DNA of 64,000 nt from an uncultured Porphyromonadaceae bacterium (GCA_964547475.1 CAZJNQ010000008.1:239-64238); one strand, 5' to 3'; shown: positions 6,542 through 23,879, counted from the first letter of the stretch. The notes: generated by a model from the letters alone, not told the origin. Made by a program: numbers and translations.

Positions 6542-6549
6542 TAGATTTG
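6542..6549 (+). promoter_or_regulatory. -7 box (TAGATTTG) upstream of the 6568 gene
   Basis: TAnnTTTG match just after the methyltransferase stop; followed by a purine-rich leader. Confidence 0.5.
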
Positions 6550-6567
6550 CGGGGAGGAAGGAAGGAT

Positions 6568-7821: not shown

Positions 7822-10800
7822 GAAGACTGGTTTTGACCGGAATGCTTGTCATTTTCTGGCTGAGTGCTGCAGGCCAGGGTGGGGTGAATCGTACCGGTCC
7901 GGCAGTGAGCCCGGCGCCCCAATTTTCACATGAACACGGATTCTACCGGGAGCCGGTTGTACTGACCTTGACAGTCCCGGGTGGCAACGGGATCATCCGT
8001 TATACGCGGGACGGATCCGATCCCGGTCCTTCCTCAACCGTTTATACCACTCCGATCCTGATCGATACCACGACAGTCATAAAAGCGGGGACATTTACGG
8101 ATAATCCCTGGCCTTCACCCGTGGTAACCCATACTTTTCTGATCAACGATTCAACGGATCTCCCGGTTTTCAGTATTTCAACCGATCCGAAAAACCTATG
8201 GGATCCGGATTCGGGCATTTATATGGAGGGGAGAAATTACGTCTGGGGCTGGGGAAACGGGAATTTCTGGCAGGATTGGGAAAAAGAGGCATTTGTCGAA
8301 TTCTTCGAGCAGGACCGGGAAGTTAAAATATCCCAGAGTGCCGGATTAAAAATCTCAGGAGCACTGACCCGCACGGCAAGTCAGAAATCCCTTCGACTCA
8401 TTGCCAGGTCTGAATATGGACCTGCCAAGTTTAATTATCCGTTTTTTAAGGATAAACCGATCTTATCCTTCAATGAAATCAAGCTGAGGACATCGGGTAA
8501 CGACTGGGCCTTCAGCATGATGAAAGACGGACTTCTTCAAACCATGGTTGCCGGCAGGATGGACATAGAATATCAGGCTTACAGACCTTCAATTGTCTTT
8601 CTGAACGGGGTTTACTGGGGAATTCACAACATACGTGAAATGATCGGCAACGATTATATCGAGGAAAACCACGGTTTTGACAAGAATAATTTGGATTTGC
8701 TGACCCAGACGGGACTTGTTAAAGAAGGGGACTTCCTCGCTTATGAAGAGCTGATTACTTTTATCAGAACTCACGATGTTTCAAATCCTGAAAATTACCA
8801 ATGGATCAGCAAACGAATGGACATCCAGGAGTTTATAAACTATGACATAGCCCAGATCTTTTTTGCGAATTATGATTGGCCTGCCGGTAACATTAAATAC
8901 TGGAAACCGAGAATTGCGGATGGAGTCTGGCGTTGGATAATATTTGACCTGGACTTTGCTTTCGAATATCCCTATTTCAATTCAGTTAAGTGGGCGACAC
9001 GTGACAGCGTGGCAGATCCAAGCGGCTCGGCTGACCTTTTCAGGATACTTCTGGGGAATCCTGAATTCAGAAAACAGTTTGTCAAGACGTTTCAATACCA
9101 CCTCAACACGACTTTCCAACCCGACCGTCTGGTTCACATGATAGATAGCCTGCAGGCAAACATTGACCGGGAAATGAAGAGCAGACATATAAAAAGATGG
9201 GAAGGTTATCACGGATGGACTTACATGGATGATAAACTGGGATATCTTGAAACACCCTGGCTGGCCAGCTATGACCAATGGCTGAATAATGTGGAAAAGC
9301 TCAGGGATTTCGCCAGAAAACGTCAGGCGGCTGTTATCAGACAGTTGCAGGATTACTTCCAAAAGGGCAATGCTGAAGAACTCAATTTCGTAACCGATCC
9401 TCCAGATGGTGGGCTGATTTTTGTTGATAATAACTGGATCGACAACCATTCAGTTGACGGTTCTTATTTCGCAGGTGAGGATCTTGCCTGCCGGGCTTTG
9501 CCTGAACAGTTGTACCGGTTTGATCGTTGGGAGATCCGGTCGAACAAACAGAATGCAGGGGATACGGTTGCCCTGATACCTCCTTTGAGCCGGTGGAAGT
9601 ACCTGGATACCGGTATTTATCTGGATGAGCATTGGCGGGATTCAGAAATTAGCTCCGCCTGGCCGGAAGGGAGGGGAATCCTGGGCTACAATAACGACGA
9701 AATAGCAACTGAACTTTCTTACGGCTCAGATCCTGCCAACAAACATGTTTCTTACCTGTTCACCGGTACCTTCAGAATTCAGTCTGCCGGGCAATGGGCC
9801 AAAATGAACATCGGACTTCTGAGGGACGATGGTGCGGTGGTGTATCTGAACGGTGTTGAGGTGATCCGTTCCAACATGCCGGGAGTTTCGGATTTTAATA
9901 CCCTGGCTTCTTCAGGAGTCGACGGTCCGGATGAACTGACATACCATTCATTCGACATTCCGGTTGCATTGCTCCGGAACGGCGACAATAAAATCGCTGT
10001 GGAGGTGCACCAGGCCAGCCTCTCCAGTCCGGATCTTACGTTTGACTTGTCACTGAAGGGTGTGGTCGGCAACAGTGACACGGAGACCACCTATTCTGTT
10101 GAAAACCCTGTGTCTTTGACTTTCGATTGGGCGTCTGAAATAATCGCCCACTTCAGTTATCAGGGCGAGATGCCTGACATCAGCATTAATGAAGTGATGC
10201 CTGCCAATCAGTCCGCCTACCCCGACCGGCTGGGATCCTACTCCTATTGGATTGAGTTATTCAACGCCGGGAACCTTCCTGTCAGCCTGTGTGGACTGTT
10301 TATCACCGATAACCTGTCCGTTCCGGGAAGATGGCAGATCCGGGTTGGAAATCCGGAATTAACTGTCATGGATCCATATGGATATCAGGTTCTCGTTGCT
10401 GATGGCAGGCCTTTCCTCGGACCGGATCATCTGGGATTCTCAATCGGCCGTGAAACGAAAACTATCGGCCTGTCCGTCAGGACTCCTGCCGGATATGTTT
10501 GGATCGATACCCTCACGGTACCCATGCAGGATCTGGACGTTTCCTTCGGACACTTTCCTGACGGGGTAACCGGACCGGTTGTGTTCACTCAGCATCCTAC
10601 ACCTGGTAATCCTAACATCAGGGATGATCAACCGGTGATTGAACAGACCCGTTTGTTGGATGCTTATCCCAATCCTTTCCAGGATGCAGCCTGTATCCGG
10701 TTTGAGGTCCGGGAAGAATCACCGGTTTTGGTCTGTGTCCGTAACCTTAACGGGACCTTGGTCAGGTTACTGACCAACCGGGTATACTCATTCGGAAGAT

Positions 10801-10919
10801 ATGATCTGTTCTGGGACGGGAAAAACAGGAGCGGACAGAAATTGCCTGCCGGTATTTACCTGGTATCATTCATTCAGCCCAGGCACTCGCAACATATCAA
10901 GCTTGTCCTGATTGAATGA
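7818..10919 (+). CDS. Secreted CotH-kinase-family protein with FN3-like, lamin-tail and FlgD/T9SS-type C-terminal domains
   Basis: Signal peptide; IRYTRDGSDP (FN3-associated); CotH motifs QKSLRL, YWGIHNIRE, DWPAGN, WIIFDLD; LTD ISINEVM...WIELFN; CTD YPNPF...WDGKN...AGIYLV...KLVLIE. Confidence 0.85.
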   Translation: MRRLVLTGMLVIFWLSAAGQGGVNRTGPAVSPAPQFSHEHGFYREPVVLTLTVPGGNGIIRYTRDGSDPGPSSTVYTTPILIDTTTVIKAGTFTDNPWPSPVVTHTFLINDSTDLPVFSISTDPKNLWDPDSGIYMEGRNYVWGWGNGNFWQDWEKEAFVEFFEQDREVKISQSAGLKISGALTRTASQKSLRLIARSEYGPAKFNYPFFKDKPILSFNEIKLRTSGNDWAFSMMKDGLLQTMVAGRMDIEYQAYRPSIVFLNGVYWGIHNIREMIGNDYIEENHGFDKNNLDLLTQTGLVKEGDFLAYEELITFIRTHDVSNPENYQWISKRMDIQEFINYDIAQIFFANYDWPAGNIKYWKPRIADGVWRWIIFDLDFAFEYPYFNSVKWATRDSVADPSGSADLFRILLGNPEFRKQFVKTFQYHLNTTFQPDRLVHMIDSLQANIDREMKSRHIKRWEGYHGWTYMDDKLGYLETPWLASYDQWLNNVEKLRDFARKRQAAVIRQLQDYFQKGNAEELNFVTDPPDGGLIFVDNNWIDNHSVDGSYFAGEDLACRALPEQLYRFDRWEIRSNKQNAGDTVALIPPLSRWKYLDTGIYLDEHWRDSEISSAWPEGRGILGYNNDEIATELSYGSDPANKHVSYLFTGTFRIQSAGQWAKMNIGLLRDDGAVVYLNGVEVIRSNMPGVSDFNTLASSGVDGPDELTYHSFDIPVALLRNGDNKIAVEVHQASLSSPDLTFDLSLKGVVGNSDTETTYSVENPVSLTFDWASEIIAHFSYQGEMPDISINEVMPANQSAYPDRLGSYSYWIELFNAGNLPVSLCGLFITDNLSVPGRWQIRVGNPELTVMDPYGYQVLVADGRPFLGPDHLGFSIGRETKTIGLSVRTPAGYVWIDTLTVPMQDLDVSFGHFPDGVTGPVVFTQHPTPGNPNIRDDQPVIEQTRLLDAYPNPFQDAACIRFEVREESPVLVCVRNLNGTLVRLLTNRVYSFGRYDLFWDGKNRSGQKLPAGIYLVSFIQPRHSQHIKLVLIE

Positions 10920-10954
10920 AGCCTGAGGCATGGCCTCAGATGACCCAATTTTCG

Positions 10955-10962
10955 TAGCTTTG
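10955..10962 (+). promoter_or_regulatory. -7 box (TAGCTTTG) for the Hpt-to-GT2 operon
   Basis: TAnnTTTG 19 nt before ATG 10982, preceded by the hairpin CTGAGGC-ATG-GCCTCAG at 10923-10939. Confidence 0.6.
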
Positions 10963-10981
10963 TCTAACTACATCAATTGCC

Positions 10982-11332
10982 ATGAAACTTTATGACCTGA
11001 AATACCTCGAGGAAATTGCCGGCGGTGACAATGCTTTCAAGGAGGAAATGCTGAAGTATTATATTGAAAACACACCGGCTGTCCTTCAAACCCTTGATAA
11101 AAGCCTGAATGATGCTGACTGGGGCAGTTTCAGGTTTGCCATCCACAAGTTCACGCCTAACCTGACCATAGTAGGGATGACCGCCTTGGCCGGGCTGGCC
11201 AACCGTCTGGAGGTCCTGGCAACCAGTCCTGACATGATCGGGCAAATTCCGTCAGTCTACGGCGGTTTCAGAGAGGGTTTGGTCAATGCCCTTGCAGAAT
11301 TGACTGGTGATTTCGGATATCTTACTAAATGA
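10982..11332 (+). CDS. Stand-alone Hpt (histidine phosphotransfer) protein
   Basis: YDLKYLEEIAGGD...F, helical, with His in FAIHKFTPNLTIVG (compare AHKxKP/GS). Confidence 0.85.
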   Translation: MKLYDLKYLEEIAGGDNAFKEEMLKYYIENTPAVLQTLDKSLNDADWGSFRFAIHKFTPNLTIVGMTALAGLANRLEVLATSPDMIGQIPSVYGGFREGLVNALAELTGDFGYLTK

Positions 11333-11345
11333 TAAGTAGTTGATA

Positions 11346-11717
11346 ATGCCTAAGATACTTGTTTGTGAAGACGATTTTATGGTTCTGAAAACCGTGGAAC
11401 ACAGGCTTAAGCTGGACGGTTATGCGGTCATCGCTGTCTCTGATGGGAGCAAGGCCAGGGATGTTTTGAAAGATCCTGCTGCTGAAGTCAGGTTGATCAT
11501 TACTGATTTGCTCATGCCCTATGTGAGCGGACTGGAATTGATCAACACGGTCAGGAATGAAATAAAACTTGAAATCCCCATTATCGTTCTTTCAAAACTT
11601 GGAAATGAAGATACGGTCCTCGAAGCTTTTAATTTAGGTGCGGATGACTATCTGACTAAGCCTTTCAGTCCAAATGAGTTGTCAGTACGGGTCAAAAAGC
11701 TCTTAATGAGGAGATAA
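11346..11717 (+). CDS. Single-domain response regulator (receiver only)
   Basis: KILVCEDD, phospho-acceptor TDLLMP, IIVLS, GADDYLTKPF; no output domain. Confidence 0.92.
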   Translation: MPKILVCEDDFMVLKTVEHRLKLDGYAVIAVSDGSKARDVLKDPAAEVRLIITDLLMPYVSGLELINTVRNEIKLEIPIIVLSKLGNEDTVLEAFNLGADDYLTKPFSPNELSVRVKKLLMRR

Positions 11718-11722
11718 CCATA

Positions 11723-13045
11723 ATGCGCAAGTCATTCCAGCTGACCGGATTCGCGGTTTTTTGGCTTTTTCTGGGCATTTCACTGGCAGCCCAGGAAGAT
11801 ACCAGCAGGTTTAACTATGAAGAGGCTTTTAAAACGGCCCAGTCGTTGGCATGGGATGGCAAATACAAGGAAGCCAGGACTCTCTGTGACCGGATCCTGG
11901 CCCGGGTTGAAGGGGATTATGATACCCGCTTTCTCCTCGCAAAAATAAATTCATGGGATAAAAAGTACCAGGAAGCCCGTGAGCTATACGAGGCTCTGAT
12001 CAAGATTACACCGGACAGCAAAGAAGTAATTCATGGCTTTATTGATACTGAAAACTGGGCTGGTGACTATCCCGCCGCAACCGGATGGATCCGTTACGGA
12101 CTGGACCGTTATCCCGGAGATCCTGACCTGGCATACAAGCAAGCGGTTATCTATCAGCGAACGGGGGAATTGGCAAAAGCCCAGGAACTCATAGCTGAAT
12201 TGCTCACCCAGTATCCCGACCGCAAGGAGTTTAAGAACCTCTATCAAACGAGCAAGGGGCCTGTCAGGATCAACGGGGCTTCGGCCGAGTACACTTACAA
12301 CCATTACAAGCTCCCGGTTGAACGAACCTGGAATATGATCGGGCTCAAATATTATAAAAGCAACAAGATCGGAACCTTTATTGGGGGCTTTAATACCGGT
12401 TATTTTGGGAATAATACCACCCGGTTCATGGAAAATGCCGGTGTCCAGTTTGAGATTGATGCTTACCCGGTCATACCGGGGAAAAAGCGATCTTATCATT
12501 TCAACCTGGGTCTGTCGCCGAGCTCCAATTTTGCCCGGCAGAAAGCCGGAGCCCATATCTATAACGGATTTGGCAAGGGATGGGAGCTAGAAGCCGGTTT
12601 TAATTTCATGCGATTCCGAAATGCATCAGATACCGTTAAAGTCCTGATTGCGGATGCAGGCTTGTCAAAGTATTTTGGTGATTACATCGGGGGTGCCGCT
12701 GTCAGTTTCTCGCCTATTGATGGGAAGGTTGCCATGGGTGCCAACCTGACGGTCAGGAAATATTTTTCGAACCCGGAGGGTTGGCTCCAGTTGTCTCTGG
12801 GTTACGGAATTTTTCCCGATAACCCTCTCTATTACCTGAATGATCCCAATTACGTTCCAAACCAGTTGCTTGCTTCCTACAACATCCTCCTGGCTGCCCG
12901 GTATCAAATGTCGGAAAGGTGGATCGGACGTGTTTATGCAGGGTATCAATATGAAGAATACCGTATTGACCAGTTACGCCATAACTTAACCCTTAACCTG
13001 GCTTTAATATACTTGTTCAGGAACTCTGCGGATCGTAAAAATTAA
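11723..13045 (+). CDS. TPR + YaiO-type outer-membrane beta-barrel protein
   Basis: Signal peptide; about 150 aa of TPR (LAWDGKYKEAR, LAKINSWDKKYQEA, NWAGDY); then alternating aromatic/hydrophobic strands including QFEIDAYP and GWELEAG. Confidence 0.75.
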   Translation: MRKSFQLTGFAVFWLFLGISLAAQEDTSRFNYEEAFKTAQSLAWDGKYKEARTLCDRILARVEGDYDTRFLLAKINSWDKKYQEARELYEALIKITPDSKEVIHGFIDTENWAGDYPAATGWIRYGLDRYPGDPDLAYKQAVIYQRTGELAKAQELIAELLTQYPDRKEFKNLYQTSKGPVRINGASAEYTYNHYKLPVERTWNMIGLKYYKSNKIGTFIGGFNTGYFGNNTTRFMENAGVQFEIDAYPVIPGKKRSYHFNLGLSPSSNFARQKAGAHIYNGFGKGWELEAGFNFMRFRNASDTVKVLIADAGLSKYFGDYIGGAAVSFSPIDGKVAMGANLTVRKYFSNPEGWLQLSLGYGIFPDNPLYYLNDPNYVPNQLLASYNILLAARYQMSERWIGRVYAGYQYEEYRIDQLRHNLTLNLALIYLFRNSADRKN

Positions 13046-13057
13046 TTGACGTAAACC

Positions 13058-14734
13058 ATGAAGGGCCTGTCACGGATAATGCAAAGGATTTTAATAGTCG
13101 CTCTCCTGCTTCTTGACAACTGGGGTGGATCATTTGCCCAGGACGTGACAAACGATTCCGTTCCGGCAGCCAGAAATTCAACTGGAAAGGTTAAGGTATA
13201 TGCCATCCAGATAGCTGCCTCAAAAGTCTTCATTGAACCTGCGTTTTTTAATGAAAAACTGGGCATCAGGGACTCGATACGGTATTTCCAGAAAGACGGA
13301 TGGTACAAGTATATTATCGGTAAGTATGCCTCGAACCAGGAAGCGACCTCTAAGTTGCCGGGTCTCTCTTTCGATGCTTTTGTCACCTATTACCATGAAG
13401 ATCGGGGTCAATCAGGGGATTCTTTGCCTTTTAACGGGAATGACACGGTTTTAACCGGCCGGGAACAAATACTTCCGGATACAACTTCTCTGCTGACCAA
13501 TGACAGTATCAGGAGACTCATGTACCTAACCAAGGTCACGGAAGCGGATTCTGTTTTCAATGTGGCTAAAGACCTGATCCGGGCACGCTCTCTGTATCAT
13601 GAAGCGGTTTTGCTGGATCCTGAAAAGAATTATCCTAAGGATCAGATTGTTGAGATTGACAGGCAGATTAAAGCACAACCGATAAACCTGATCAAACGCA
13701 TTCCTCAGGCCATTTATGGGATCCTGTTTTTTATCGGCGTGATGATCGTTGTTTTGTTTATCGTTCTGGTTTTAAGAAGCCACCGGAAGCGGGTGGATAA
13801 GCAAAAGCAGAAAATCAGGGAAGGATATCAGGATACAATAGCGGAATATATTTTCACTGAACAGGAAGGCAGCACCATCCAGTTGCCTGACCTTGATTCA
13901 AAACTGAAAAAACAACTGCTGATTGACCAGATCATGCAGCTCTATGCCAATCTTGCCGGGGAAATCTCGGAGAAACTGCGAAAACTCTATCTCGAGCTGG
14001 GTCTGGACAACGAATCGATCAGGAAAGTCAGGAGTAACCAATGGCATATCCGCGCGAAAGGTTTCAGGGAACTGGCTCGTATGAACATCCAAGCAGTCAA
14101 TTCTGAAATTGAGCGATGCCTGAACTCACCCAACGAAGTACTGCGTATGGAAGCCCAGCTGGCCATGATCAGGCTCAGTTCGGAAGATCCGTTAAAGTTC
14201 CTGGATATCCTGAAACAGCCTTTTACTGCGTGGGAACAGCTCCATGTGTACGATTTGATCCAGCGGTTTCAGATCTCTCCGCCGGATTTCAGCAGATGGT
14301 TGGATTCGTCGAACGAATCGGTGATCGTCTTTTCGATCCGAATGATCAGGGCTTTCAGGCAGGAATCAGCTTTTGACAAGCTGAAAGTCTTGCTGGATCA
14401 TCCTTGTTATGAAATTCGGGAAGAAACCTTTATGACCCTCGGGGAACTGGGAAATCCTGAGGGATTGGTTTTGCTACGGAACCGCTATGAGACCGAAAGT
14501 GAACCCGGCCGCCTGGAGATTTTGAAAGCCATCGGAAAAATTCCGGACGATGCCAATATTGAGTTTCTCAAAAGTGTCAGGGATCAAAGCATTGACCTCC
14601 GGTTACAGGCAGCTGATGCCCTGGCAAGGATCGAATCTTACGGAATCAAGGGAATTGAGAATTTGCTGCAAGGCCCTGATGAGGACATGCAGGCCATTGC
14701 CCGACATATCCTGGAGAATAAAATCCGAAGGTAA
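13058..14734 (+). CDS. SPOR-like/TPR periplasmic region + TM helix + cytoplasmic HEAT-repeat protein
   Basis: Signal peptide; YAIQIAAS...DGWYKYIIG (SPOR-like); TM AIYGILFFIGVMIVVLFIVLVL followed by basic residues; HEAT repeats WHIRAKG, EVLRMEA, YEIREET...LGELG, LKAIGKI, LRLQAADAL. Confidence 0.8.
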   Translation: MKGLSRIMQRILIVALLLLDNWGGSFAQDVTNDSVPAARNSTGKVKVYAIQIAASKVFIEPAFFNEKLGIRDSIRYFQKDGWYKYIIGKYASNQEATSKLPGLSFDAFVTYYHEDRGQSGDSLPFNGNDTVLTGREQILPDTTSLLTNDSIRRLMYLTKVTEADSVFNVAKDLIRARSLYHEAVLLDPEKNYPKDQIVEIDRQIKAQPINLIKRIPQAIYGILFFIGVMIVVLFIVLVLRSHRKRVDKQKQKIREGYQDTIAEYIFTEQEGSTIQLPDLDSKLKKQLLIDQIMQLYANLAGEISEKLRKLYLELGLDNESIRKVRSNQWHIRAKGFRELARMNIQAVNSEIERCLNSPNEVLRMEAQLAMIRLSSEDPLKFLDILKQPFTAWEQLHVYDLIQRFQISPPDFSRWLDSSNESVIVFSIRMIRAFRQESAFDKLKVLLDHPCYEIREETFMTLGELGNPEGLVLLRNRYETESEPGRLEILKAIGKIPDDANIEFLKSVRDQSIDLRLQAADALARIESYGIKGIENLLQGPDEDMQAIARHILENKIRR

Positions 14735-14736
14735 CA

Positions 14737-16176
14737 ATGGGAATCCTTAAAGCCCTGCAACTACTCTTTGAATCGCTGATCCTGGTCGTTTCGACTACCG
14801 TAATGCTTTCCTATGCCATCCTGGCGGTTATATCTGCCATAGCCATCCGGCGGTATTTAAGGGCTACCAGTTTTGTGGACTATGATTCCATTCTTTCATG
14901 CCCTTTTGCTCCCACCATTTCTATCCTGGCCCCCGCTTATAACGAAGGCAATAACATCATTCAGAACGTCAGGGCACTGATGTCATTGTATTATAGTGAT
15001 TTTGAGGTTATTATCATCAATGATGGGAGCAAGGACGATACCCTCGAAAAGCTCATCGCGGAATATGACCTGGAAAAGGTGACTTATGTTTTCGAGTACA
15101 AGATACCAACCAAAGAAGTTAGGGGAGTCTATAAATCGAGGAACCGCTCTTTCTCAAGGCTCCTCATTATCGACAAGTTCAACGGCGGCAAGGCAGATTC
15201 CTTAAATGCCGGTATCAATCTGGCATCCGGGAAACTATTCGTTGCCATTGATGTGGATTGCATCATTGAATCGGATGCGTTGTTGAAGCTGGTCAAACCC
15301 TTTCTCGAAAAAACTAACAAGAGGGTGATTGCCACAGGCGGGGTCATTCGCGTTGTGAACGATTGTGTGATAGAGAGCGGCCAGGTCGCCCGAATTAATC
15401 TTCCCAGAAAGTTTTTGCCGCGCGTACAGGTCCTTGAATATACACGGGCTTTCCTGATGGGCAGGATGGCATGGTCCAGGCTGGATGGTTTGCTGCTCAT
15501 CTCGGGTGCTTTGGGCCTTTTTGACCGCGAGGTTGTCATTGCCTGCGGGGGTTACCTTGCTTCAACCGTTGGGGAAGACATGGAACTGGTCATCAGGATG
15601 AGGCGCTACATGGTTGAAACCGGCCAGCCCTATTCTGTTGCCTATATCCCGGATCCGTTATGCTGGACGGAAGTGCCGGAAACACGAAAGGTACTTGGAA
15701 GACAACGCAATCGCTGGACCCGGGGTCTGATCGATTCTCTGAATATTCACAGGAAAATCGGCTTTAACAGGAAATACGGCCGGTTTGGGATGCTAGGGTA
15801 TCCTTACTGGTTAATTTTCGAATGGTTCGTGCTGGTTTTGGAAGTTGTTGCTATTTTTTATTTCGGGTTGACCATTCTGTTCGGACAGGCAAATTATGCC
15901 TTCTTTGGCATTATGTTCGGTCTGGTGTACAGCTTTGCGGTCAGTATGTCTGTATGGTCGATCCTTTTTGAAGAGATGTCCTATCATAAGTATGAAAGCC
16001 GCAGGGATGTTCTCAGGTTGGTGGTAACCGCCTTCCTCGAACCGTTGTTTTACCATCCGATGACCCTTTATTGGGCAGTGCGCGGCAATATTGATTACTT
16101 ATCCGGTAAGCATTCCTGGGGGGAAATGGCCCGAAAAGGGTTCGCAAAGGCAAAAAATCCCCAGGCTGGTAAATGA
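14737..16176 (+). CDS. Processive GT2 glycosyltransferase (PgaC/IcaA/cellulose-synthase-like)
   Basis: N-terminal TM; PAYNE, NDGSKD, GGKADSLN, DVD (DxD), GED (catalytic base), QRNRW (QxxRW); C-terminal TM helices. Confidence 0.92.
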   Translation: MGILKALQLLFESLILVVSTTVMLSYAILAVISAIAIRRYLRATSFVDYDSILSCPFAPTISILAPAYNEGNNIIQNVRALMSLYYSDFEVIIINDGSKDDTLEKLIAEYDLEKVTYVFEYKIPTKEVRGVYKSRNRSFSRLLIIDKFNGGKADSLNAGINLASGKLFVAIDVDCIIESDALLKLVKPFLEKTNKRVIATGGVIRVVNDCVIESGQVARINLPRKFLPRVQVLEYTRAFLMGRMAWSRLDGLLLISGALGLFDREVVIACGGYLASTVGEDMELVIRMRRYMVETGQPYSVAYIPDPLCWTEVPETRKVLGRQRNRWTRGLIDSLNIHRKIGFNRKYGRFGMLGYPYWLIFEWFVLVLEVVAIFYFGLTILFGQANYAFFGIMFGLVYSFAVSMSVWSILFEEMSYHKYESRRDVLRLVVTAFLEPLFYHPMTLYWAVRGNIDYLSGKHSWGEMARKGFAKAKNPQAGK

Positions 16177-16194
16177 GGACTAGGGTGATCTTCC

Positions 16195-16225
16195 TTTGCT
16201 TTTTCCTCAAAGGTCCCTAACTTTG
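16195..16225 (+). promoter_or_regulatory. sigma-A promoter of tRNA-Arg (-33 TTTG, 19 nt, -7 TAACTTTG)
   Basis: TTTG at 16195-16198 and TAACTTTG at 16218-16225, canonical Bacteroidota spacing. Confidence 0.7.
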
Positions 16226-16235
16226 CCGTCTATCC

Positions 16236-16309
16236 GGTCTCGTAGCTCAGTTGGATAGAGCAGCAGCCTTCTAAGCTGCGGGTCGCAGGTTCGAATCCTG
16301 CCGGGATCA
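16236..16309 (+). tRNA. tRNA-Arg(UCU)
   Basis: Acceptor GGTCTCG/CGGGATC, D-arm TAGCTCAGTTGGATAGAGC, anticodon arm GCAGC-CTTCTAA-GCTGC, T-arm GGTTCGAATCC; CCA not encoded. Confidence 0.97.
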
Positions 16310-16381
16310 CTGAAGTTACATGTGATTCAGCCGTGGTCCTCTTAACGGTTTTCCCGCCTGCCCCTCAAGTTACCGGCCTGT

Positions 16382-17752
16382 TTAATTGTCTTTGATACAC
16401 CGGACACTGATCCCGGTTTTCTTGTTGAAATGGGTCTTGGAGAGGTACCCGTTGCACGCAGCCACTTCCCGAATGTATCCCTCGTTCAGGTACAGGTAAA
16501 TGTAAGAGCTGGATTGCCAGAAGAATCCGCCGGAGCCAAAACTGTAGAAGGCTCCCTTGGCGTGGCGGTCGCCTGCAAAATAGGCTTCAAAACCACTGGA
16601 TCCGCCGACTTTCAGTTGAGCCCCCGCGTCACCGTACTTGTAAAAATTATTGAGGGTCTTCCAGTCGTTATCAGAAGGAAGATGCCAACCCTCCGGGCAT
16701 ATTCCGCGGGTTCCTTCCGCATCCGTGTATCCCATGACTTCGTCCCAGTCGTATAAACCACCGTACAGGTCGCAATTATGCGGGTCATTGCCCCAGCAGT
16801 ACTTTTCAATTATCCCGTTGTCAGACAGGTCGGAATGATCCATGTAGTCAACCGTGCTGGCCACATAGCGTCCCGTGTTCAGGTTTTTGGCCATCCAGCA
16901 CTGGTCACCGATCTGAACTGTCGGGTACGTATTCCCATCGGCATCCGTTACATAGGGAGTTCCCGGACAGGGATTCTTGCTCAATTGGAAAAAGGTCAGG
17001 TTAACCTCGTCTGAAGAGGTTCCGCAAGTTCCTGCAATGGTCCAGAGGAGTGTGTAGGATAAATTCGCCGAATCCTTTATGAACCAGGTGTCAGGATCAG
17101 AGGGATCTGAAAACCTTCCACCGGTTCCTGAAAGGATGGACCAGGTGCCTTGCCCGTGTTCAGCAGGATTACCCTCAAGCCTGGTCGAATCGGCAGCGAT
17201 GAAAGGCTGGTCAGGGCCCGCTGTCGCCTTGTTCGGTACATCCAGAACCCGGATATAGGCAAAAGCCGTGTCTGAGCACTGGGTCTGGCTGTCCTTAAAA
17301 CGGTAGAAAATCATGTGCAACCCCAATCCGGCCTGAGCGGGATTGAATTTACCTTCAGTAACACCGGGTCCCCATGCGGTCCCTCCGGCAGGAGTTCCCC
17401 CCGTCAATACAAAGGCACGCTCATTAATGCACGCGGTATCCCTTGGATCGAAGATCACAACGGGTGGTTCATTTATCAAAAGATGAATGATGTCAGAGTA
17501 AACGGGAGCACACATTCCTTCAATAACTTCTGACCGGTAAAAAGCAGGTTCAGCTGCGACCAATTCCAGGGTATCATTTCCGGATCCGTTGATCCGGCTC
17601 CAGTCAAATCCGTTTGCAGAGATTTGCCAAAACACCTCGCCACGGTAACTTGGCAACGAAAACCATACCGTATCCTGCCGACAGGCATAATGCTGGCCCA
17701 CGGCAAGCATCGGTAAGGAAACCAGTATCAATGAAATCCATTTCTTTTTCAT
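16382..17752 (-). CDS. Secreted protein with Ig/PKD-like repeats and C-terminal FISUMP (Fibrobacter succinogenes major paralogous) domain
   Basis: Signal peptide; DADGNTYPTVQIGDQCWMAKNL, YGGLYDW, GICPEGWHLPSD, SVRCIKD. Confidence 0.88.
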   Translation of the reverse strand: MKKKWISLILVSLPMLAVGQHYACRQDTVWFSLPSYRGEVFWQISANGFDWSRINGSGNDTLELVAAEPAFYRSEVIEGMCAPVYSDIIHLLINEPPVVIFDPRDTACINERAFVLTGGTPAGGTAWGPGVTEGKFNPAQAGLGLHMIFYRFKDSQTQCSDTAFAYIRVLDVPNKATAGPDQPFIAADSTRLEGNPAEHGQGTWSILSGTGGRFSDPSDPDTWFIKDSANLSYTLLWTIAGTCGTSSDEVNLTFFQLSKNPCPGTPYVTDADGNTYPTVQIGDQCWMAKNLNTGRYVASTVDYMDHSDLSDNGIIEKYCWGNDPHNCDLYGGLYDWDEVMGYTDAEGTRGICPEGWHLPSDNDWKTLNNFYKYGDAGAQLKVGGSSGFEAYFAGDRHAKGAFYSFGSGGFFWQSSSYIYLYLNEGYIREVAACNGYLSKTHFNKKTGISVRCIKDN

Positions 17753-17765
17753 ATTCCTCTGCTCC

Positions 17766-18389
17766 TTACCTGATTAACAAACGAAAGGATAATACCCTGC
17801 CGGCCATTAGCAGCTTCAGGAAATAAACTCCGCTGTCGACAATGCCCGTATCGATCTCGACGGACCGTACCGACGCCTTTTCCCGGAAACTCCGGGTATA
17901 AACCACCTTGCCCAGGGTATTGATCACCTCAATGTTTTGCAGTTGCTGTGATCCAACCTCCAATCCTGAAAGTATGAACTTCCCTGAGGATGGATTGGGA
18001 TATACAACGAGTCCGGTATGCCAACTGTCAGTATCTGTACCCAGGCAAGGATCAGCAAAAATCGTTATCTCGTCGGTTGCGGTACAGCCTCTGACATCAG
18101 TCACCTGTAGGGTATAGGTGATGGTATTGGCCAGCAAGGCTGTCGGATTCGGTGAAGTGGAATCGTCCAACCCTTCTGCCGGTGACCACAGGTAAAAATA
18201 GTCCATGGAACCACCGGTCGCTGCCGGGTCGCCACCGAGTCTTACAGATCGTCCCGAACAGACGATTGTATCAGGGCCGGCATCAGCCGACAACAGGGGC
18301 GACTGATTGAATCCAACAAGGATCACCTGGGCATTCAGACCCGAAAGGTTTGGAACCACAAGGAAGAGTAGCAACAATAGTCTATGCAT
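17766..18389 (-). CDS. Small T9SS type A sorting-domain protein with one PKD-like module
   Basis: MHRLLLL signal peptide (ATG 18389); ADAGPDTIVC...YLWSP; CTD VYPNPSSG...SGVYFLKL...RLLIR; TACCTTTG box at 18411-18418 (-). Confidence 0.85.
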   Translation of the reverse strand: MHRLLLLLFLVVPNLSGLNAQVILVGFNQSPLLSADAGPDTIVCSGRSVRLGGDPAATGGSMDYFYLWSPAEGLDDSTSPNPTALLANTITYTLQVTDVRGCTATDEITIFADPCLGTDTDSWHTGLVVYPNPSSGKFILSGLEVGSQQLQNIEVINTLGKVVYTRSFREKASVRSVEIDTGIVDSGVYFLKLLMAGRVLSFRLLIR

Positions 18390-18459
18390 CGCAAATCGGT
18401 TTGATCGGGTCAAAGGTAAATAGCTAAACACTTTTCTGGCTACTTTTGTTCTCTATATA

Positions 18460-19083
18460 ATGAACAACGATTTATATCTCAACGGCAGGAAGTTACCTGT
18501 TATGGAGGAGTTTTATTCACTCCAGGGGGAAGGCTTCAATACCGGAAAACCGGCCTTTTTTTTACGGATCGGGGGTTGTGACATCGGTTGCGCCTGGTGC
18601 GACAGCAAATTAAGCTGGTCAGCTGACCATTATCCGCTGGCCGATGTTGATGAGATCGTCGGCAGGATCAGGTCTTATCCGGCCAAAGCTCTGGTTGTAA
18701 CGGGCGGAGAACCAGGACTTTATCCGATGGATTACCTGTGCGACAAAGTTCGTGAAAGCGGGATACTGACCTATCTTGAAACTTCGGGTGCATACCCTTT
18801 GAGCGGTTCATGGGACTGGATTTGTCTTTCTCCTAAAATTCAAAATCCGCCGCACCCTGCAAATTATGAGAAGGCAAATGAATTGAAAGTGATCATCGAA
18901 AGTCCGGGTGATTTTCACTGGGCCGAGGAAAACGCACGGCGGGTCAATTCTTCCTGCCACCTGTTCCTGCAGCCAGAATGGAGCCGGCGGAATAGGATAC
19001 TCGAAGACGTCATTGCTTACATCTGTAACAATCCAAAATGGAGGCTCTCCCTCCAAAGCCACAAGTATATAGGAATACCCTGA
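18460..19083 (+). CDS. queE: 7-carboxy-7-deazaguanine synthase (radical SAM)
   Basis: EFYSLQGEG, CDIGCAWC (CxxxCxxC), VTGGEP, LSPK, SLQSHK; TACTTTTG box at 18441-18448. Confidence 0.93.
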   Translation: MNNDLYLNGRKLPVMEEFYSLQGEGFNTGKPAFFLRIGGCDIGCAWCDSKLSWSADHYPLADVDEIVGRIRSYPAKALVVTGGEPGLYPMDYLCDKVRESGILTYLETSGAYPLSGSWDWICLSPKIQNPPHPANYEKANELKVIIESPGDFHWAEENARRVNSSCHLFLQPEWSRRNRILEDVIAYICNNPKWRLSLQSHKYIGIP

Positions 19084-20999
19084 TGCTCATGTTCCCGGCC
19101 ATACTCATCGGGCTGTTGCTATTACCCATCAGCCTGGTAGCCCAGCCCGGATCCCGGATGCCGGCCCGACTGGCCCGGGAACTTGACCGGATAGGCAGAC
19201 TTGCCGGTGATATGGAATGGGAAAAGTCACATAAAGCGGCGGAACGATTGACAAAAGTTTACCCGGATTGGCCGCAGTCTTGGTTGATGCTGGCAGAAAC
19301 GGAAAAAGGGCTGGGACAGGAGCCGGCTTCCGAGCGATCCATGCAGAAGGTAATCCTCCTCGATTCGACAGGTTTTCCGCAAGCTTACCAATGGCTGGCC
19401 TGGCGTAAATTCCGCACGGGATCTTATTACGACGCCCTGCGTTGTTTCGATGGATATCAGCGATCCAGGAGAAACCATTCACCGCTGACCTGGAATGACA
19501 GTCTCCTACTCTGCAGCATCCGGTTTGCGATCGACCAGGGTAAAAAGACGGGAATCGTCATGCCGGAAAAGCTCCCTGCGGCGATCAACACGGTTCATGA
19601 TGAGTACTTTCCGAGCCTCACGGTGGATGGTTCCGTCCTGGTTTTCACCCGGCAGCAAACGGTTCGATTGGATACGCTGCCGGTGAATAATCAGGAGGAT
19701 TTGTACGAGTCCCTGTATAATTCCGGTAGTTTTACCCCTCCGGAAAAAATGCCGGAGCCAGTCAACACCGGAAGCAATGAGGGAACCCAGAGTTTGTCAC
19801 AGGATGGCCGGATCATGATTTTTACCGCTTGCAACCGGCCTGATTCCAAAGGAGGATGCGATCTCTACCTGTCTGAAAAAGCGGGACGTTCATGGGGCAA
19901 GCCGGTCAATATCGGTTATCCGGTCAACACGCGTTATTGGGAATCCACGCCCTGCTTGTCTGCAGATGGCCGTTACCTTTTTTTCTCCAGCAACCGGCCG
20001 GGTGGGCGAGGGCAGATGGATATCTGGAAAAGCGAAAAAACCAGCGAAGGGAATTGGACCCAACCGGTAAATCTGGGATCACCGGTCAATACCCCGGGCA
20101 ACGAGATGTCACCTGTCATGCCGCTCGATTCACGAATTCTTTATTTTGCCTCTGATGGACATCCTGGCATGGGAGGCTTTGATTTGTTCAGGTCAGAGCG
20201 GGGTATAACGGGAAATTGGATGCAGCCGGTAAACCTGGGATTCCCGGTCAATACCTGGGCCGATGAGGATGGTCTCGCGTTCTCTGCCTATCAACGCCAG
20301 GCGATCATAGCTTCCGGCAGGGACTCACTCAACGGGAAAGACCTTTTCCTGATCCCCTGGGATATGCCCGAAGAATTACAGAACCTGATCATTGCGGGCA
20401 GAGTCACTGATCAGCGGAACGGCAATCCGGTGTCCGCAAGTGTGCAGGTTCAATCCCTTGCAGACAGTATAATCAGTTCAGTCGTATCGGATCCGGTGAC
20501 CGGGGAATACCTGGCAGGCATTCCGGAAGGAACCGCATTCAGGATCAACGCCACCGCTCAGGGTTATCTGCCCTATTCAGGAACCCTCATCATCGGCGAA
20601 AAGGATACTGCCAGGGTAGTAAAAGCCGATTTACCCCTGCAATGGGTGGATCAGGGTGCCAGTGTAATTCTCTATAATGTTTTCTTCAGATGGGATTCCT
20701 ATGAATTGCTCCCGGAATCCGTTCCGGAATTGGACCAGGTCTGCCAGGTGTTGTCGGAAAATCCGGGCATCTGTGTCGAGATCGGGGGACATACCGATTC
20801 AACGGGGACGTTTGATTACAACATAACATTAAGCTACAGGCGCGCCGAAGCCGTTTGTAAGTACCTGGTAAGCAAAGGAATAAATCCAGCCCGATTGCAG
20901 GCTAAAGGCTATGGATTCACCAACCCGGTAAGTGGAAACCTGACTCCCGTGGACAGGGCAAAAAACAGGAGGACCGAATTAAAGGTACTTGTTCAATAG
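19083..20999 (+). CDS. TPR + PD40 beta-propeller + carboxypeptidase-regulatory-like + OmpA-C protein (PorE-like architecture)
   Basis: Repeated PVN.G.PVNT PD40 units; OmpA-C GHTDSTG...LSYRRA...NRRTE; ATG shares one base with the queE stop (TGATG). Confidence 0.85.
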   Translation: MLMFPAILIGLLLLPISLVAQPGSRMPARLARELDRIGRLAGDMEWEKSHKAAERLTKVYPDWPQSWLMLAETEKGLGQEPASERSMQKVILLDSTGFPQAYQWLAWRKFRTGSYYDALRCFDGYQRSRRNHSPLTWNDSLLLCSIRFAIDQGKKTGIVMPEKLPAAINTVHDEYFPSLTVDGSVLVFTRQQTVRLDTLPVNNQEDLYESLYNSGSFTPPEKMPEPVNTGSNEGTQSLSQDGRIMIFTACNRPDSKGGCDLYLSEKAGRSWGKPVNIGYPVNTRYWESTPCLSADGRYLFFSSNRPGGRGQMDIWKSEKTSEGNWTQPVNLGSPVNTPGNEMSPVMPLDSRILYFASDGHPGMGGFDLFRSERGITGNWMQPVNLGFPVNTWADEDGLAFSAYQRQAIIASGRDSLNGKDLFLIPWDMPEELQNLIIAGRVTDQRNGNPVSASVQVQSLADSIISSVVSDPVTGEYLAGIPEGTAFRINATAQGYLPYSGTLIIGEKDTARVVKADLPLQWVDQGASVILYNVFFRWDSYELLPESVPELDQVCQVLSENPGICVEIGGHTDSTGTFDYNITLSYRRAEAVCKYLVSKGINPARLQAKGYGFTNPVSGNLTPVDRAKNRRTELKVLVQ

Positions 21000-21081: not shown

Positions 21082-21483
21082 ATGAAGATTGACCGTATCG
21101 AACACATTGGTATTGCCGTAAAAAACCTCAGCGAAGCCATCCGGTTCTATGAGGATATCCTTAACCTGAAATGTTACGGAATTGAAGAGATCGCAGATCA
21201 GAAAGTCAGGACTGCCTTTTTCCAGGTGGGGGGTACCAAGGTCGAATTACTGGAATCAACGGATCCGGAGGGCCCGGTTGGAAGATTCATCGACAGCAAG
21301 GGGGAGGGAATTCATCATATTGCCTTTGCAGTTGACGATATCGTCAGTTCGTTGAATGAACTCAGGGAAAAAGGTGTACGCCTGATCGATCAGGCCCCCC
21401 GAAAGGGAGCAGAAGACCTGAAGATAGGTTTTCTTCATCCCAAGGCCACTCTCGGTGTATTGACTGAATTTTGTTCCAAATAA
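21082..21483 (+). CDS. mce: Methylmalonyl-CoA epimerase
   Basis: [27 protein letters not shown]...GVLTE; TACTTTTG at 21048-21055 supports ATG 21082. Confidence 0.93.
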
Positions 21484-21497
21484 TACTATTGCCAACT

Positions 21498-23060: not shown

Positions 23061-23072
23061 CCCTGCAGTTAT

Positions 23073-23435: not shown

Positions 23436-23456
23436 ACGCCTCAACAACCGAGCGAA

Positions 23457-23873: not shown

Positions 23874-23879
23874 CGGATC

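What the first reader, a model, noticed from the sequence alone, without database searches (positions are those of the whole stretch)
10982..16176. Candidate phosphorelay-controlled, synthase-dependent exopolysaccharide system (Hpt - receiver - TPR/YaiO barrel - SPOR/HEAT - GT2)
Seen: five same-strand genes separated by 2-13 nt, behind their own TAGCTTTG promoter box and ending at the tRNA promoter. The GT2 has the full D,DxD,(G)ED,QxxRW processive signature plus TM helices. Established: PNAG (PgaC/PgaA), cellulose (BcsA/BcsC), Pel and alginate systems pair an inner-membrane synthase with a TPR + beta-barrel exporter and are switched by c-di-GMP. Inference: this operon has the synthase and exporter, but no PilZ, GGDEF or MshEN module is visible. 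It has an Hpt, an output-less receiver and a membrane HEAT-repeat protein instead, so the phosphorylated receiver may dock on the HEAT protein or the synthase to gate polymer synthesis. I know of no characterisation of this arrangement, and the polymer is unknown.
Basis: partly seen in the sequence, partly recalled or inferred. Interest (0 to 1): 0.85.

Follow-up and report, generated by a model that had tools for sequence, protein, structure and literature searches.

The report
Phosphorelay-linked polysaccharide synthase operon, Bacteroidota
A freshwater Bacteroidota genome carries a five-gene operon that looks like a sugar-polymer synthesis and export machine wired to a His-Asp phosphorelay instead of the usual c-di-GMP switch, and the same uncharacterised gene set recurs across the phylum.

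Summary
Window 10982-16176 carries five tightly packed + strand genes: Hpt, a stand-alone receiver (REC), a TPR + YaiO beta-barrel protein, a SPOR-like/TM/HEAT-solenoid membrane protein, and a PgaC-like GT2.

GT2 motifs D96, D172xD174, E280D281 and Q323RNRW327 are invariant in 30 of 30 orthologues. The YaiO protein models as 10 TPR helices plus 14 strands, and its best PDB fold match is BcsC.

The linkage is not chance. Among 57 HEAT-domain ORFs in 56 diverse Bacteroidota loci, a GT2 follows directly in 52. A stand-alone REC lies nearby in 43 and a YaiO protein in 43. Hpt domains or hybrid kinases are often adjacent.

This genome has a single detectable Hpt, the one in this operon. It has one non-HTCS hybrid kinase without an Hpt, and no GGDEF, EAL or PilZ.

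Many relatives add or fuse a PF00884 (BcsG/LtaS-type) transferase.

I read it as a Bacteroidota-specific synthase-dependent glycan system under phosphorelay control. Direct docking of REC on HEAT or GT2, the polymer and secretion itself remain untested. I found no description of it in print.

The parts
10923..10939 (+). 7-bp inverted repeat (CTGAGGC-atg-GCCTCAG) just after the stop of the upstream CotH/T9SS gene. It is a possible transcript boundary before the operon.
   Evidence: Read by eye. The terminator scan did not report it because no T run follows directly. Not tested.
10955..10962 (+). TAGCTTTG, a candidate Bacteroidota -7 promoter box 20 nt upstream of the Hpt ATG.
   Evidence: The motif count in the window is at chance level (31 against 34.6 expected). 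No other + strand copy lies between here and 16218. The promoter role is inferred and the consensus is recalled.
10982..11332 (+). Hpt phosphotransfer protein (116 aa), with the putative phospho-His at H55.
   Evidence: PF01627, E 1.6e-5, 25.5 bits against a cut-off of 24.6. H55 is invariant in 8 of 8 orthologues. It is the only Hpt match in the whole genome.
11340..11717 (+). Stand-alone receiver domain protein (125 aa; the likely start is the ATG at 11346) with no output domain.
   Evidence: PF00072, E 3.6e-23. D11, D56, K107 are invariant and S85 nearly so in 23 orthologues.
11723..13045 (+). Outer-membrane TPR + YaiO-family beta-barrel protein (440 aa), the proposed export porin.
   Evidence: PF19413, E 1.6e-27, and TIGR04390, E 2.4e-21. 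AlphaFold model at pLDDT 86.9: N-terminal helix, 10 TPR helices (32-178) and 14 strands (185-431). The Foldseek top hit is E. coli BcsC (9b8a, E 4.8e-13).
13058..14734 (+). Bitopic inner-membrane protein (558 aa). It has an N-terminal anchor or signal, a periplasmic SPOR-like domain (44-115), helices (149-206), a TM helix (about 221-245) and a cytoplasmic HEAT/ARM solenoid (282-557).
   Evidence: HEAT_2, E 1.6e-14. Model at pLDDT 80.3. Hydropathy peak at 221-239, followed by a basic stretch. Foldseek finds only generic alphaRep/ARM/HEAT folds. Orthologues carry PF05036 SPOR.
14737..16176 (+). Membrane-embedded, PgaC/IcaA-like family-2 glycosyltransferase (479 aa), the putative processive synthase-translocase.
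   Evidence: Pfam GT2 families. TIGR03937 PgaC_IcaA scores 118 bits, below its 422 cut-off. 27% identity to E. coli PgaC, E 7e-26. Motifs are invariant in 30 of 30 orthologues.
16218..16310 (+). TAACTTTG box followed by tRNA-Arg(TCT); this is the downstream boundary of the operon.

Best explanation
The operon encodes a Bacteroidota-specific version of a synthase-dependent glycan synthesis and export machine.

Proposed parts:
- The GT2 (14737-16176) is a processive, inverting inner-membrane synthase of the PgaC/IcaA type. It polymerises a nucleotide-sugar and threads the chain into the periplasm.
- The protein encoded just upstream (13058-14734) is its inner-membrane partner. One TM helix carries a cytoplasmic HEAT solenoid next to the catalytic domain. 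A periplasmic SPOR-like domain can hold the complex to peptidoglycan.
- The TPR + 14-strand YaiO barrel (11723-13045) receives the chain in the periplasm and passes it through the outer membrane, as BcsC, PgaA and PelB do.

Proposed control. The genome has no c-di-GMP system, so control comes from a His-Asp phosphorelay. A hybrid kinase encoded elsewhere passes phosphate to the operon's Hpt, which is the genome's only one. The best kinase candidate is the 897-aa HisKA-HATPase-REC-REC protein on contig C38. The Hpt then phosphorylates D56 of the output-less receiver. The phosphorylated receiver acts by protein-protein contact on the HEAT solenoid and/or the GT2 to switch polymerisation on or off.

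Shown: the gene content, folds, motifs, conserved linkage and the absence of c-di-GMP genes.
Inferred: complex formation, the direction of the switch, secretion, and the polymer. The polymer is unknown; a beta-linked hexose or HexNAc homopolymer is my guess.
For: 1. Domain and motif identities.

2. Conserved linkage. I examined 57 HEAT-C ORFs in 56 loci: the window, 35 loci, and 20 that I chose from the 46 other genomes with hits.
- GT2 directly downstream on the same strand: 52.
- Stand-alone REC on the same strand within 9 kb: 43.
- YaiO protein: 43.
- Hpt domain: 19.
- Histidine-kinase core: 11.
Of the 45 GT2-linked cases with at least 1.5 kb of upstream sequence, 42 have the stand-alone REC. 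Two of the other three carry the REC as a REC-Hpt-REC fusion (L041) or on the opposite strand (L101).

3. Diversity of the sample. No pair of these ORFs is 95% identical or more, and they form 30 clusters at 50% identity. HEAT-C is in 47 of 401 sampled Bacteroidota genomes and 28 of 180 genera. It matches 885 cluster representatives at E <= 1e-30.

4. Phospho-competence. REC residues D11, D56 and K107 are invariant and S85 nearly so. Hpt H55 is invariant in 8 of 8.

5. Complete relays beside the cluster in relatives. These include PAS/GAF-HisKA-HATPase-REC-Hpt kinases, HK-REC-REC proteins and REC-Hpt proteins.

6. Own genome. It has one Hpt and 18 HisKA matches. The C38 kinase has two RECs and no Hpt, and is 41% identical over 546 aa to the cluster-adjacent kinase of L098. 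The hybrid kinase on C91 that I examined carries an AraC output domain, and I read the 1376-aa hybrid on C69 the same way from its size alone, without scanning it. No GGDEF, PilZ or EAL was found at 97.4% completeness.

7. Topology. REC, the HEAT solenoid and the GT-A domain are all placed in the cytoplasm.

8. Periplasmic passage of the product. Relatives encode or fuse a PF00884 (BcsG/LtaS/OpgB-type, extracytoplasmic) transferase to the GT2.

9. A GT2 variant (P0249) carries the SPOR domain itself. The PG-binding module therefore moves between the two proteins, as expected of partners.

10. The YaiO model and its BcsC fold match.
Against: No experiment and no expression data exist for any member.

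The loci were found by similarity to the HEAT protein, and kin share gene order. The counts therefore show conservation, not independent events.

YaiO is not in the cluster in 7 relatives with adequate flanks: L038, L039, L040, L042, L044, L045 and L101. The exporter assignment is therefore less universal than the REC-HEAT-GT2 core.

One same-genus genome (L036) keeps a full HEAT protein with no GT2, REC or YaiO nearby.

A 14-strand barrel is smaller than the 16-18-strand exporters that I recall for AlgE, PgaA and BcsC. The window protein shows no significant BLASTP similarity to E. coli YaiO, and membership rests on HMMs.

The Hpt match is only just above the Pfam cut-off.

41% identity between kinase cores is common among hybrid kinases, so the C38 assignment is weak.

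No REC-HEAT, REC-GT2 or HEAT-GT2 fusion was found.
Confidence: 0.55

Rival explanations
1. The system does make and export a glycan, but the receiver does not touch the synthase. REC and Hpt would be a branch or phosphate sink of a relay whose real output is elsewhere, for example transcription through another regulator. The HEAT protein would be only a structural or peptidoglycan-anchoring subunit.
For: No REC-HEAT or REC-GT2 fusion was found. Stand-alone receivers are known to act as phosphate sinks (recalled). In the layout of L028, L029 and L034, Hpt-REC-YaiO and HEAT-GT2 are split by an opposite-strand gene, so co-transcription of REC with the synthase is not obligatory.
Against: The output-less REC stays within the cluster across 30 clusters at 50% identity and through three gene orders. 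Such persistence is hard to explain without a local target. The genome has no c-di-GMP genes to provide another post-translational switch.
Confidence: 0.2
2. The GT2 product is not a secreted exopolysaccharide. It would be a periplasmic or membrane-bound glycan, such as an osmoregulated-glucan-like polymer, a glycolipid or a wall-linked polymer. The YaiO barrel would have another role.
For: PF00884 transferases in relatives also decorate periplasmic glucans (OpgB) and lipoteichoic acid (LtaS) (recalled). YaiO is missing from the cluster in 7 well-flanked relatives. The barrel has only 14 strands. SPOR domains point to peptidoglycan.
Against: A TPR + barrel protein is in the cluster in 43 of 57 cases. 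Its best structural match is the cellulose exporter BcsC. E. coli also pairs yaiO with a GT2, yaiP.
Confidence: 0.15
3. The five genes are neighbours by chance, or the ORFs are not real genes.
For: The promoter-box motif occurs at chance frequency in the window. No RNA data exist.
Against: All five ORFs have curated-family matches and orthologues at 57-81% identity in the nearest relative, in the same order. The linkage is conserved across the phylum.
Confidence: 0.02

Closest known systems
E. coli PgaABCD poly-beta-1,6-GlcNAc system
   Same: The GT2 is nearest to PgaC among the E. coli synthases compared: 27% identity, E 7e-26, with shared D, DxD, ED and QxxRW motifs. PgaC_IcaA is the best NCBIfam model. 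Both systems pair an inner-membrane GT2 and a small inner-membrane partner with a TPR + barrel outer-membrane exporter.
   Different: The GT2 scores 118 bits against the 422-bit equivalog cut-off. The operon has no PgaB-type deacetylase and no PgaD. The exporter belongs to the YaiO family, not PgaA. Control is not by c-di-GMP.
E. coli Bcs cellulose system (BcsA/B/C/G, with BcsE)
   Same: The overall logic is the same. BcsC is the best fold match of the TPR + barrel protein. Relatives of the operon add a PF00884 transferase, the family of the pEtN transferase BcsG (the BcsG role is recalled).
   Different: The GT2 has no PilZ domain, and the BcsA models score 17-38 bits against cut-offs of 699-992. 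There is no BcsB. The window operon itself lacks the PF00884 gene.
E. coli yaiS-yaiP-yaiX-yaiO cluster (uncharacterised)
   Same: It pairs a YaiO-family outer-membrane barrel with a GT2. The window protein passes both curated YaiO models.
   Different: E. coli YaiO is a 257-aa barrel without TPR. The GT2 shares only 26% identity with YaiP over 227 aa. E. coli has a deacetylase and an acyltransferase there, but no HEAT, REC or Hpt gene within the yai cluster. In the open-access library YaiO appears mainly as a PCR marker, judging from the titles and abstract starts of 20 of 54 papers in the search listing.
E. coli NfrB/NfrA/YbcH exopolysaccharide system (Junkermeier and Hengge 2021, PMC8669469; abstract read)
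   Same: A recently recognised GT2 plus outer-membrane protein EPS system with a dedicated local signalling input.
   Different: NfrB is switched by c-di-GMP through an MshEN domain. It has no significant similarity to the window GT2 (best BLASTP E 0.04).
His-Asp phosphorelays ending in single-domain receivers (CheY-type output by protein-protein contact)
   Same: An Hpt with a conserved His, a receiver with the full D/D/S/K set and no output domain, and hybrid kinases next to the cluster in relatives.
   Different: The proposed target, a glycan synthase complex reached through a HEAT-repeat membrane protein, is not a known receiver target as far as my searches reach.

Membership tests
Synthase-dependent exopolysaccharide secretion systems (Bcs/Pga/Pel/Alg/Nfr type) | Inner-membrane processive GT2 with D, DxD, (E)D and QxxRW motifs and flanking TM segments | tested here: met
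   The motifs are invariant in 30 of 30 orthologues. Processivity itself is not testable here.
Synthase-dependent exopolysaccharide secretion systems (Bcs/Pga/Pel/Alg/Nfr type) | Outer-membrane beta-barrel porin with a periplasmic TPR scaffold | tested here: met
   10 TPR helices plus 14 strands, with BcsC as the best fold match. Barrel closure and outer-membrane location are inferred.
Synthase-dependent exopolysaccharide secretion systems (Bcs/Pga/Pel/Alg/Nfr type) | Post-translational activation by c-di-GMP through a PilZ, GGDEF I-site, MshEN or PgaCD receptor | tested here: not met
   No such domain in the operon. No GGDEF, PilZ or EAL in the genome at 97.4% completeness. MshEN was not searched genome-wide.
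Synthase-dependent exopolysaccharide secretion systems (Bcs/Pga/Pel/Alg/Nfr type) | A polymer is actually secreted | not testable with these tools
   No experiment and no RNA run.
PgaC/IcaA poly-beta-1,6-GlcNAc synthase (TIGR03937 equivalog) | Score above the curated equivalog cut-off | tested here: not met
   118.4 bits against 422.3.
YaiO outer-membrane beta-barrel family (PF19413 / TIGR04390) | Score above the curated cut-offs of both models | tested here: met
   97.1 bits against 23.9, and 76.8 bits against 32. Pairwise BLASTP to E. coli YaiO is not significant.
BcsA cellulose synthase | BcsA equivalog score and a C-terminal PilZ domain | tested here: not met
   38.3 bits against 699 and 17.4 bits against 992. 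No PilZ.
NfrB c-di-GMP-activated GT2 | Sequence similarity to NfrB and an MshEN domain | tested here: not met
   Best BLASTP E 0.04. No extra C-terminal domain.
His-Asp phosphorelay | Hpt with a conserved phospho-accepting His | tested here: met
   PF01627 just above its cut-off. H55 is invariant in 8 of 8.
His-Asp phosphorelay | Receiver with the acidic pocket, phospho-Asp, Ser/Thr and Lys | tested here: met
   D11, D56 and K107 are invariant, and S85 is at least 90% conserved, in 23 sequences.
His-Asp phosphorelay | A cognate hybrid histidine kinase feeding the Hpt | tested here: inconclusive
   None in the window. A candidate lies on C38. Kinases are adjacent in relatives. Phosphotransfer was not tested.
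SPOR peptidoglycan-binding domain (PF05036) | Pfam match in the window protein | tested here: inconclusive
   No Pfam hit at E <= 0.01. The model has the b-a-b-b-a-b unit at 44-115, and aligned orthologues carry PF05036.

The most novel reading that the evidence does not exclude
In Bacteroidota, which largely lack c-di-GMP, a phosphorylated single-domain receiver has taken over the job that c-di-GMP does elsewhere. It would bind a dedicated HEAT-repeat inner-membrane adaptor and so allosterically gate a processive glycan synthase. That would be a direct, post-translational two-component switch on polysaccharide synthesis. The REC-HEAT-GT2 triad would define a new, phylum-wide class of synthase-dependent systems, and in many members the polymer would carry phospho-substituents.
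Probability: 0.4. Interest if true: 0.75.

Novelty: new variant of a known kind. Interest (0 to 1): 0.62.

Why it matters
Synthase-dependent polysaccharide systems (cellulose, PNAG, Pel, alginate, Nfr) are the textbook targets of c-di-GMP. How bacteria without c-di-GMP switch such machines is an open question.

This locus offers a concrete, conserved candidate: a receiver, an Hpt and a HEAT-repeat membrane protein tied to the synthase gene across at least 28 of 180 sampled Bacteroidota genera. It names the residues to mutate (REC D56, Hpt H55) and the partner to test (the HEAT solenoid).

It also suggests a role for two unannotated families. One is the TM-HEAT family, with 885 cluster representatives at E <= 1e-30. 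The other is the YaiO barrels, which so far have no assigned function.

Cultured carriers exist. A Solitalea agri strain appears, and Pedobacter and Chitinophagaceae are named (there as MAG records), so the idea is directly testable. Bacteroidota are major particle and biofilm colonisers in water and soil, so a regulated surface glycan could matter ecologically.

Tried and rejected
Complex prediction. REC was folded with HEAT residues 246-558, both as 23-row alignments. The verdict was "no answer", score 0.01 against a mark of 0.32. It counts neither for nor against binding.

Expression. No RNA holder is listed for window 10900-16300. Ten DNA runs labelled freshwater or lake-water metagenome hold 59-95% of the sampled words.

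Search for Rosetta-stone fusions.
- The HEAT-C searches showed N-terminal SPOR or nothing, in 10 of 10 long members scanned (6 with SPOR, 4 with HEAT only).
- The GT2 "longer" search listed 120 proteins. By my reading all but one are GT2-PF00884 fusions.
- The exception, P0249, looked like a possible HEAT-GT2 fusion. It is a GT2 with a C-terminal SPOR domain and no HEAT-C.

GT2-YaiO fused ORF in L043 (728 aa). I considered it as evidence for a direct synthase-porin link and rejected it. The 120 best of 257 relatives of its barrel part are all stand-alone 402-439-aa TPR-YaiO proteins, one of them 88% identical. A deletion or assembly fault is the more likely cause.

"Gene X". This 653-aa minus-strand ORF splits the cluster in L028, L029 and L034. 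It has no Pfam family and is unrelated to the window's own 653-aa ORF at 19038-20999.

Possible divergent barrels. The proteins without a Pfam family next to the YaiO-less clusters in L039 and L045 do not match the YaiO alignment.

Other dead ends.
- The PDB sequence search with the GT2 found only N-terminal GT-A matches.
- Foldseek of the HEAT model gave only designed or generic solenoids.
- The sigma-70 promoter and terminator scans were at chance level.

Literature. Nine searches found no description of this arrangement. I saw only listings, plus passages of PMC13721041 and the abstract and outline of PMC8669469. Supplements are closed, and subscription papers are not covered.

Full report
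**What is there**

The window is Bacteroidota-like. It carries T9SS sorting domains, and its relatives are Bacteroidales MAGs. The assembly is 3.17 Mb and 97.4% complete.

Between a CotH/T9SS gene (7818-10919) and tRNA-Arg(TCT) (16236-16310) lie five + strand ORFs. Their gaps are 7, 5, 12 and 2 nt. Pfam and NCBIfam identify them as follows.
- 10982-11332: Hpt, PF01627, 25.5 bits against a cut-off of 24.6.
- 11340-11717: a receiver with no output domain, PF00072, E 3.6e-23.
- 11723-13045: TPR repeats followed by a YaiO barrel domain. PF19413 scores 97 bits against 23.9, and TIGR04390 scores 76.8 against 32.
- 13058-14734: a HEAT-repeat protein, HEAT_2, E 1.6e-14.
- 14737-16176: a family-2 glycosyltransferase. 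Its best curated model is PgaC_IcaA, at 118 bits against a cut-off of 422.

TAGCTTTG sits at 10955-10962 and TAACTTTG at 16218-16225. The motif is not enriched in the window (31 found against 34.6 expected), so only the placement of the boxes is suggestive. A 7-bp inverted repeat follows the CotH stop codon (read by eye).

**The parts in detail**

*GT2.* It aligns with E. coli PgaC at 27% identity (E 7e-26), through the DxD, ED and QRxRW blocks. It aligns less well with YaiP (26% over 227 aa) and not significantly with NfrB. D96, D172-V-D174, E280-D281 and Q323-R-N-R-W327 are invariant in 30 of 30 orthologues, and hydrophobic segments flank the catalytic domain. No solved structure is close by sequence.

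*Receiver.* It keeps D11, D56 and K107 in all 23 orthologues and S85 in nearly all.

*Hpt.* It keeps H55 in 8 of 8 orthologues.

*HEAT protein* (model pLDDT 80.3). The model shows these elements in order:
- an N-terminal helix;
- a beta-alpha-beta-beta-alpha-beta unit at 44-115;
- helices at 149-206;
- one long TM helix, with the hydropathy peak at 221-239, followed by a run of basic residues;
- an alpha-solenoid at 282-557.

Aligned orthologues carry Pfam SPOR in the N-terminal part. The topology is therefore periplasmic SPOR, one TM helix and a cytoplasmic HEAT solenoid. Foldseek finds only generic HEAT/ARM/alphaRep folds.

*YaiO protein* (model pLDDT 86.9). It has an N-terminal helix, ten TPR helices and 14 beta strands. 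Its best PDB match is the cellulose exporter BcsC (E 4.8e-13). General porins and the 14-strand CymA follow.

**Is the linkage real?**

Three searches collected relatives of the HEAT protein.
- With the whole HEAT protein, 26 of 41 related genomes matched, including 23 of 24 in the same family.
- A pattern scan of one genome per species returned 35 loci. They come from Bacteroidales MAGs, Prolixibacteraceae and Solitalea agri.
- A profile of the cytoplasmic HEAT domain (A4) matched 47 of 401 evenly drawn Bacteroidota genomes, in 28 of 180 genera. I fetched 20 of the 46 other genomes, chosen by me to span scores and kinship.

I annotated all 56 loci with one HMM set. They hold 57 HEAT-C ORFs.

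| Feature near the HEAT-C ORF | Count of 57 |
|---|---|
| GT2 directly downstream, same strand | 52 |
| Stand-alone REC, same strand, within 9 kb | 43 |
| YaiO protein | 43 |
| Hpt domain | 19 |
| Histidine-kinase core | 11 |
| PF00884-like protein | 26 |

The five ORFs without a GT2 are these:
- L033, whose contig ends 719 bp downstream;
- L035, L037 and L055, three short paralogues with only about 95 aa of HEAT-C;
- L036, a true exception: a full HEAT protein in a same-genus genome with no GT2, REC or YaiO nearby.

Of the 45 GT2-linked cases with at least 1.5 kb of upstream sequence, 42 have the stand-alone REC. The three others are:
- L041, with a REC-Hpt-REC fusion;
- L101, with REC and Hpt on the other strand;
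- L032, whose contig starts close upstream.

In L102 two HEAT-GT2-YaiO sets sit behind one REC.

YaiO is missing from the cluster in seven well-flanked loci: L038, L039, L040, L042, L044, L045 and L101. Neighbouring proteins without a family there do not match the YaiO alignment.

The 57 ORFs include no near-duplicates and form 30 clusters at 50% identity. Three gene orders occur:
- Hpt-REC-YaiO-HEAT-GT2, as in the window and L027;
- the same order split by an opposite-strand gene of unknown family, as in L028, L029 and L034;
- REC-HEAT-GT2-(PF00884)-YaiO, in most other lineages.

The conserved core is REC-HEAT-GT2. Kin share gene order, so these counts show conservation and not independent events.

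**The signalling side**

In relatives the cluster is flanked by PAS/GAF-HisKA-HATPase-REC-Hpt kinases, HK-REC-REC kinases, REC-Hpt proteins or a REC-Hpt-REC fusion.

In the window's own genome:
- the operon's Hpt is the only Hpt detected;
- there are 18 HisKA and 27 REC matches;
- of the hybrid kinases, the one on C91 that I examined carries an AraC output domain. I read the 1376-aa one on C69 the same way from its size alone, without scanning it;
- the remaining hybrid kinase, on C38, is an 897-aa HisKA-HATPase-REC-REC protein without an Hpt. It is 41% identical over 546 aa to the kinase next to the cluster in L098.

That makes C38 to Hpt to REC the simplest relay, but it is an inference.

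No GGDEF, PilZ or EAL domain was found in the genome. The usual c-di-GMP switch is therefore not available.

**Clues to the product**

Many relatives encode a membrane PF00884 (sulfatase/alkaline-phosphatase superfamily) protein with C-terminal TPR. Others fuse that domain to the C-terminus of the GT2. Of the 120 best long GT2 relatives listed, all but one are such fusions, with names such as Ferruginibacter, Ginsengibacter, Hanamia and Pedobacter.

This family includes BcsG, LtaS and OpgB (recalled), which act outside the cytoplasm. The fusions therefore argue that the GT2 product enters the periplasm and is decorated there in those lineages. The window operon has no such gene.

One GT2 variant carries a C-terminal SPOR domain itself. 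The peptidoglycan-binding module thus moves between the GT2 and the HEAT protein.

**Reading**

The best-supported explanation is a synthase-dependent glycan machine with three parts: a GT2 synthase-translocase, a HEAT-repeat inner-membrane partner, and a TPR + YaiO outer-membrane conduit. The switch would be a phosphorelay that ends in an output-less receiver.

REC, the HEAT solenoid and the GT-A domain all lie in the cytoplasm, and the three genes stay together across the phylum. I therefore think the phosphorylated receiver acts by contact on the HEAT/GT2 complex. My confidence in the whole statement is 0.55. It is about 0.8 for "synthase-dependent glycan system" alone.

The rivals are:
- a receiver that is only a relay branch or phosphate sink (0.2);
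- a periplasmic or wall-bound product rather than a secreted one (0.15);
- chance juxtaposition (0.02, effectively refuted).

**Comparison with known systems, and novelty**

The system works like Pga, Bcs, Pel and Nfr, but it fails the membership tests for PgaC, BcsA and NfrB. It lacks their c-di-GMP receptor. It uses a YaiO-family barrel, so far known only from the uncharacterised E. coli yaiSPXO cluster.

Nine full-text searches found no description of a HEAT-GT2-receiver arrangement or of a YaiO function. Supplements and subscription journals were not covered. Database names for the HEAT protein are only "HEAT repeat domain-containing" or "hypothetical". I rate it a new variant of a known kind.

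**Limits**

There is no experiment and no RNA evidence. The complex prediction gave no answer.

Noticed in passing
window 7818-10919 (+): A 1033-aa secreted protein with chitobiase C-terminal, CotH kinase-like, lamin-tail and T9SS sorting domains lies directly upstream of the operon. Related genomes keep a T9SS-tailed protein at this position, but with LTD/beta-helix domains instead of CotH.
   Followed up: partly
window 16382-17752 (-) and 17766-18431 (-): A FISUMP (Fib_succ_major) protein and a small T9SS-tailed protein lie downstream. They are syntenic with the operon in the same family, including L036, where the GT2, REC, Hpt and YaiO genes are missing.
   Followed up: partly
L036 (= L017) 7908-9458: A same-genus genome keeps a full-length TM-HEAT protein at the syntenic site, but no GT2, REC, Hpt or YaiO lies nearby. 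It is either an orphan HEAT protein or the remnant of a lost operon.
   Followed up: no
L043 5351-7537: A single 728-aa ORF fuses the GT2 to a YaiO barrel without TPR. The 120 best of the 257 relatives of the barrel part are all stand-alone TPR-YaiO proteins, so a deletion or assembly fault in this MAG is likely.
   Followed up: yes
L101 9203-12868; L106 8752-12186; proteins P0218-P0337: Fusions of the GT2 to a PF00884 (BcsG/LtaS-type) transferase are very common in Chitinophagaceae- and Pedobacter-like genomes. The implied phospho-substituent on the polymer is unknown.
   Followed up: partly
P0249 (860 aa): A GT2 orthologue carries a C-terminal SPOR domain. In other genomes the HEAT protein carries the SPOR domain.
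   Followed up: partly
L097 6560-9355; L099 7548-9629; L100 8348-10927: Some HEAT proteins are 693-931 aa long, with about 500 extra C-terminal residues after HEAT-C. In L097 and L100, the two of the three scanned, these residues have almost no Pfam match.
   Followed up: no
L028 5829-7790 (-); same position in L029 and L034: A 653-aa opposite-strand ORF with no Pfam family splits Hpt-REC-YaiO from HEAT-GT2 in related genera. In those genomes the YaiO protein is 776-786 aa long, with three TPR blocks.
   Followed up: partly
G000 contig C38 (L115 3875-6568, -): The only non-HTCS hybrid histidine kinase seen in the genome (HisKA-HATPase-REC-REC, 897 aa, no Hpt). It lies next to a LuxE-like acyl-protein synthetase gene and metG.
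   Followed up: partly
whole genome G000: No GGDEF, EAL or PilZ domain was detected in a 97.4% complete assembly. The B. thetaiotaomicron control genome also gave no hit in these searches.
   Followed up: yes
window 21471-25229: Carboxyl-transferase and OAD-beta genes, the subunits of a Na+-translocating decarboxylase, followed by a glycogen-debranching-type enzyme at 26129-28069.
   Followed up: no
window 6547-7821 (+): A 424-aa ORF with no Pfam family overlaps the start of the CotH gene by 4 nt.
   Followed up: no
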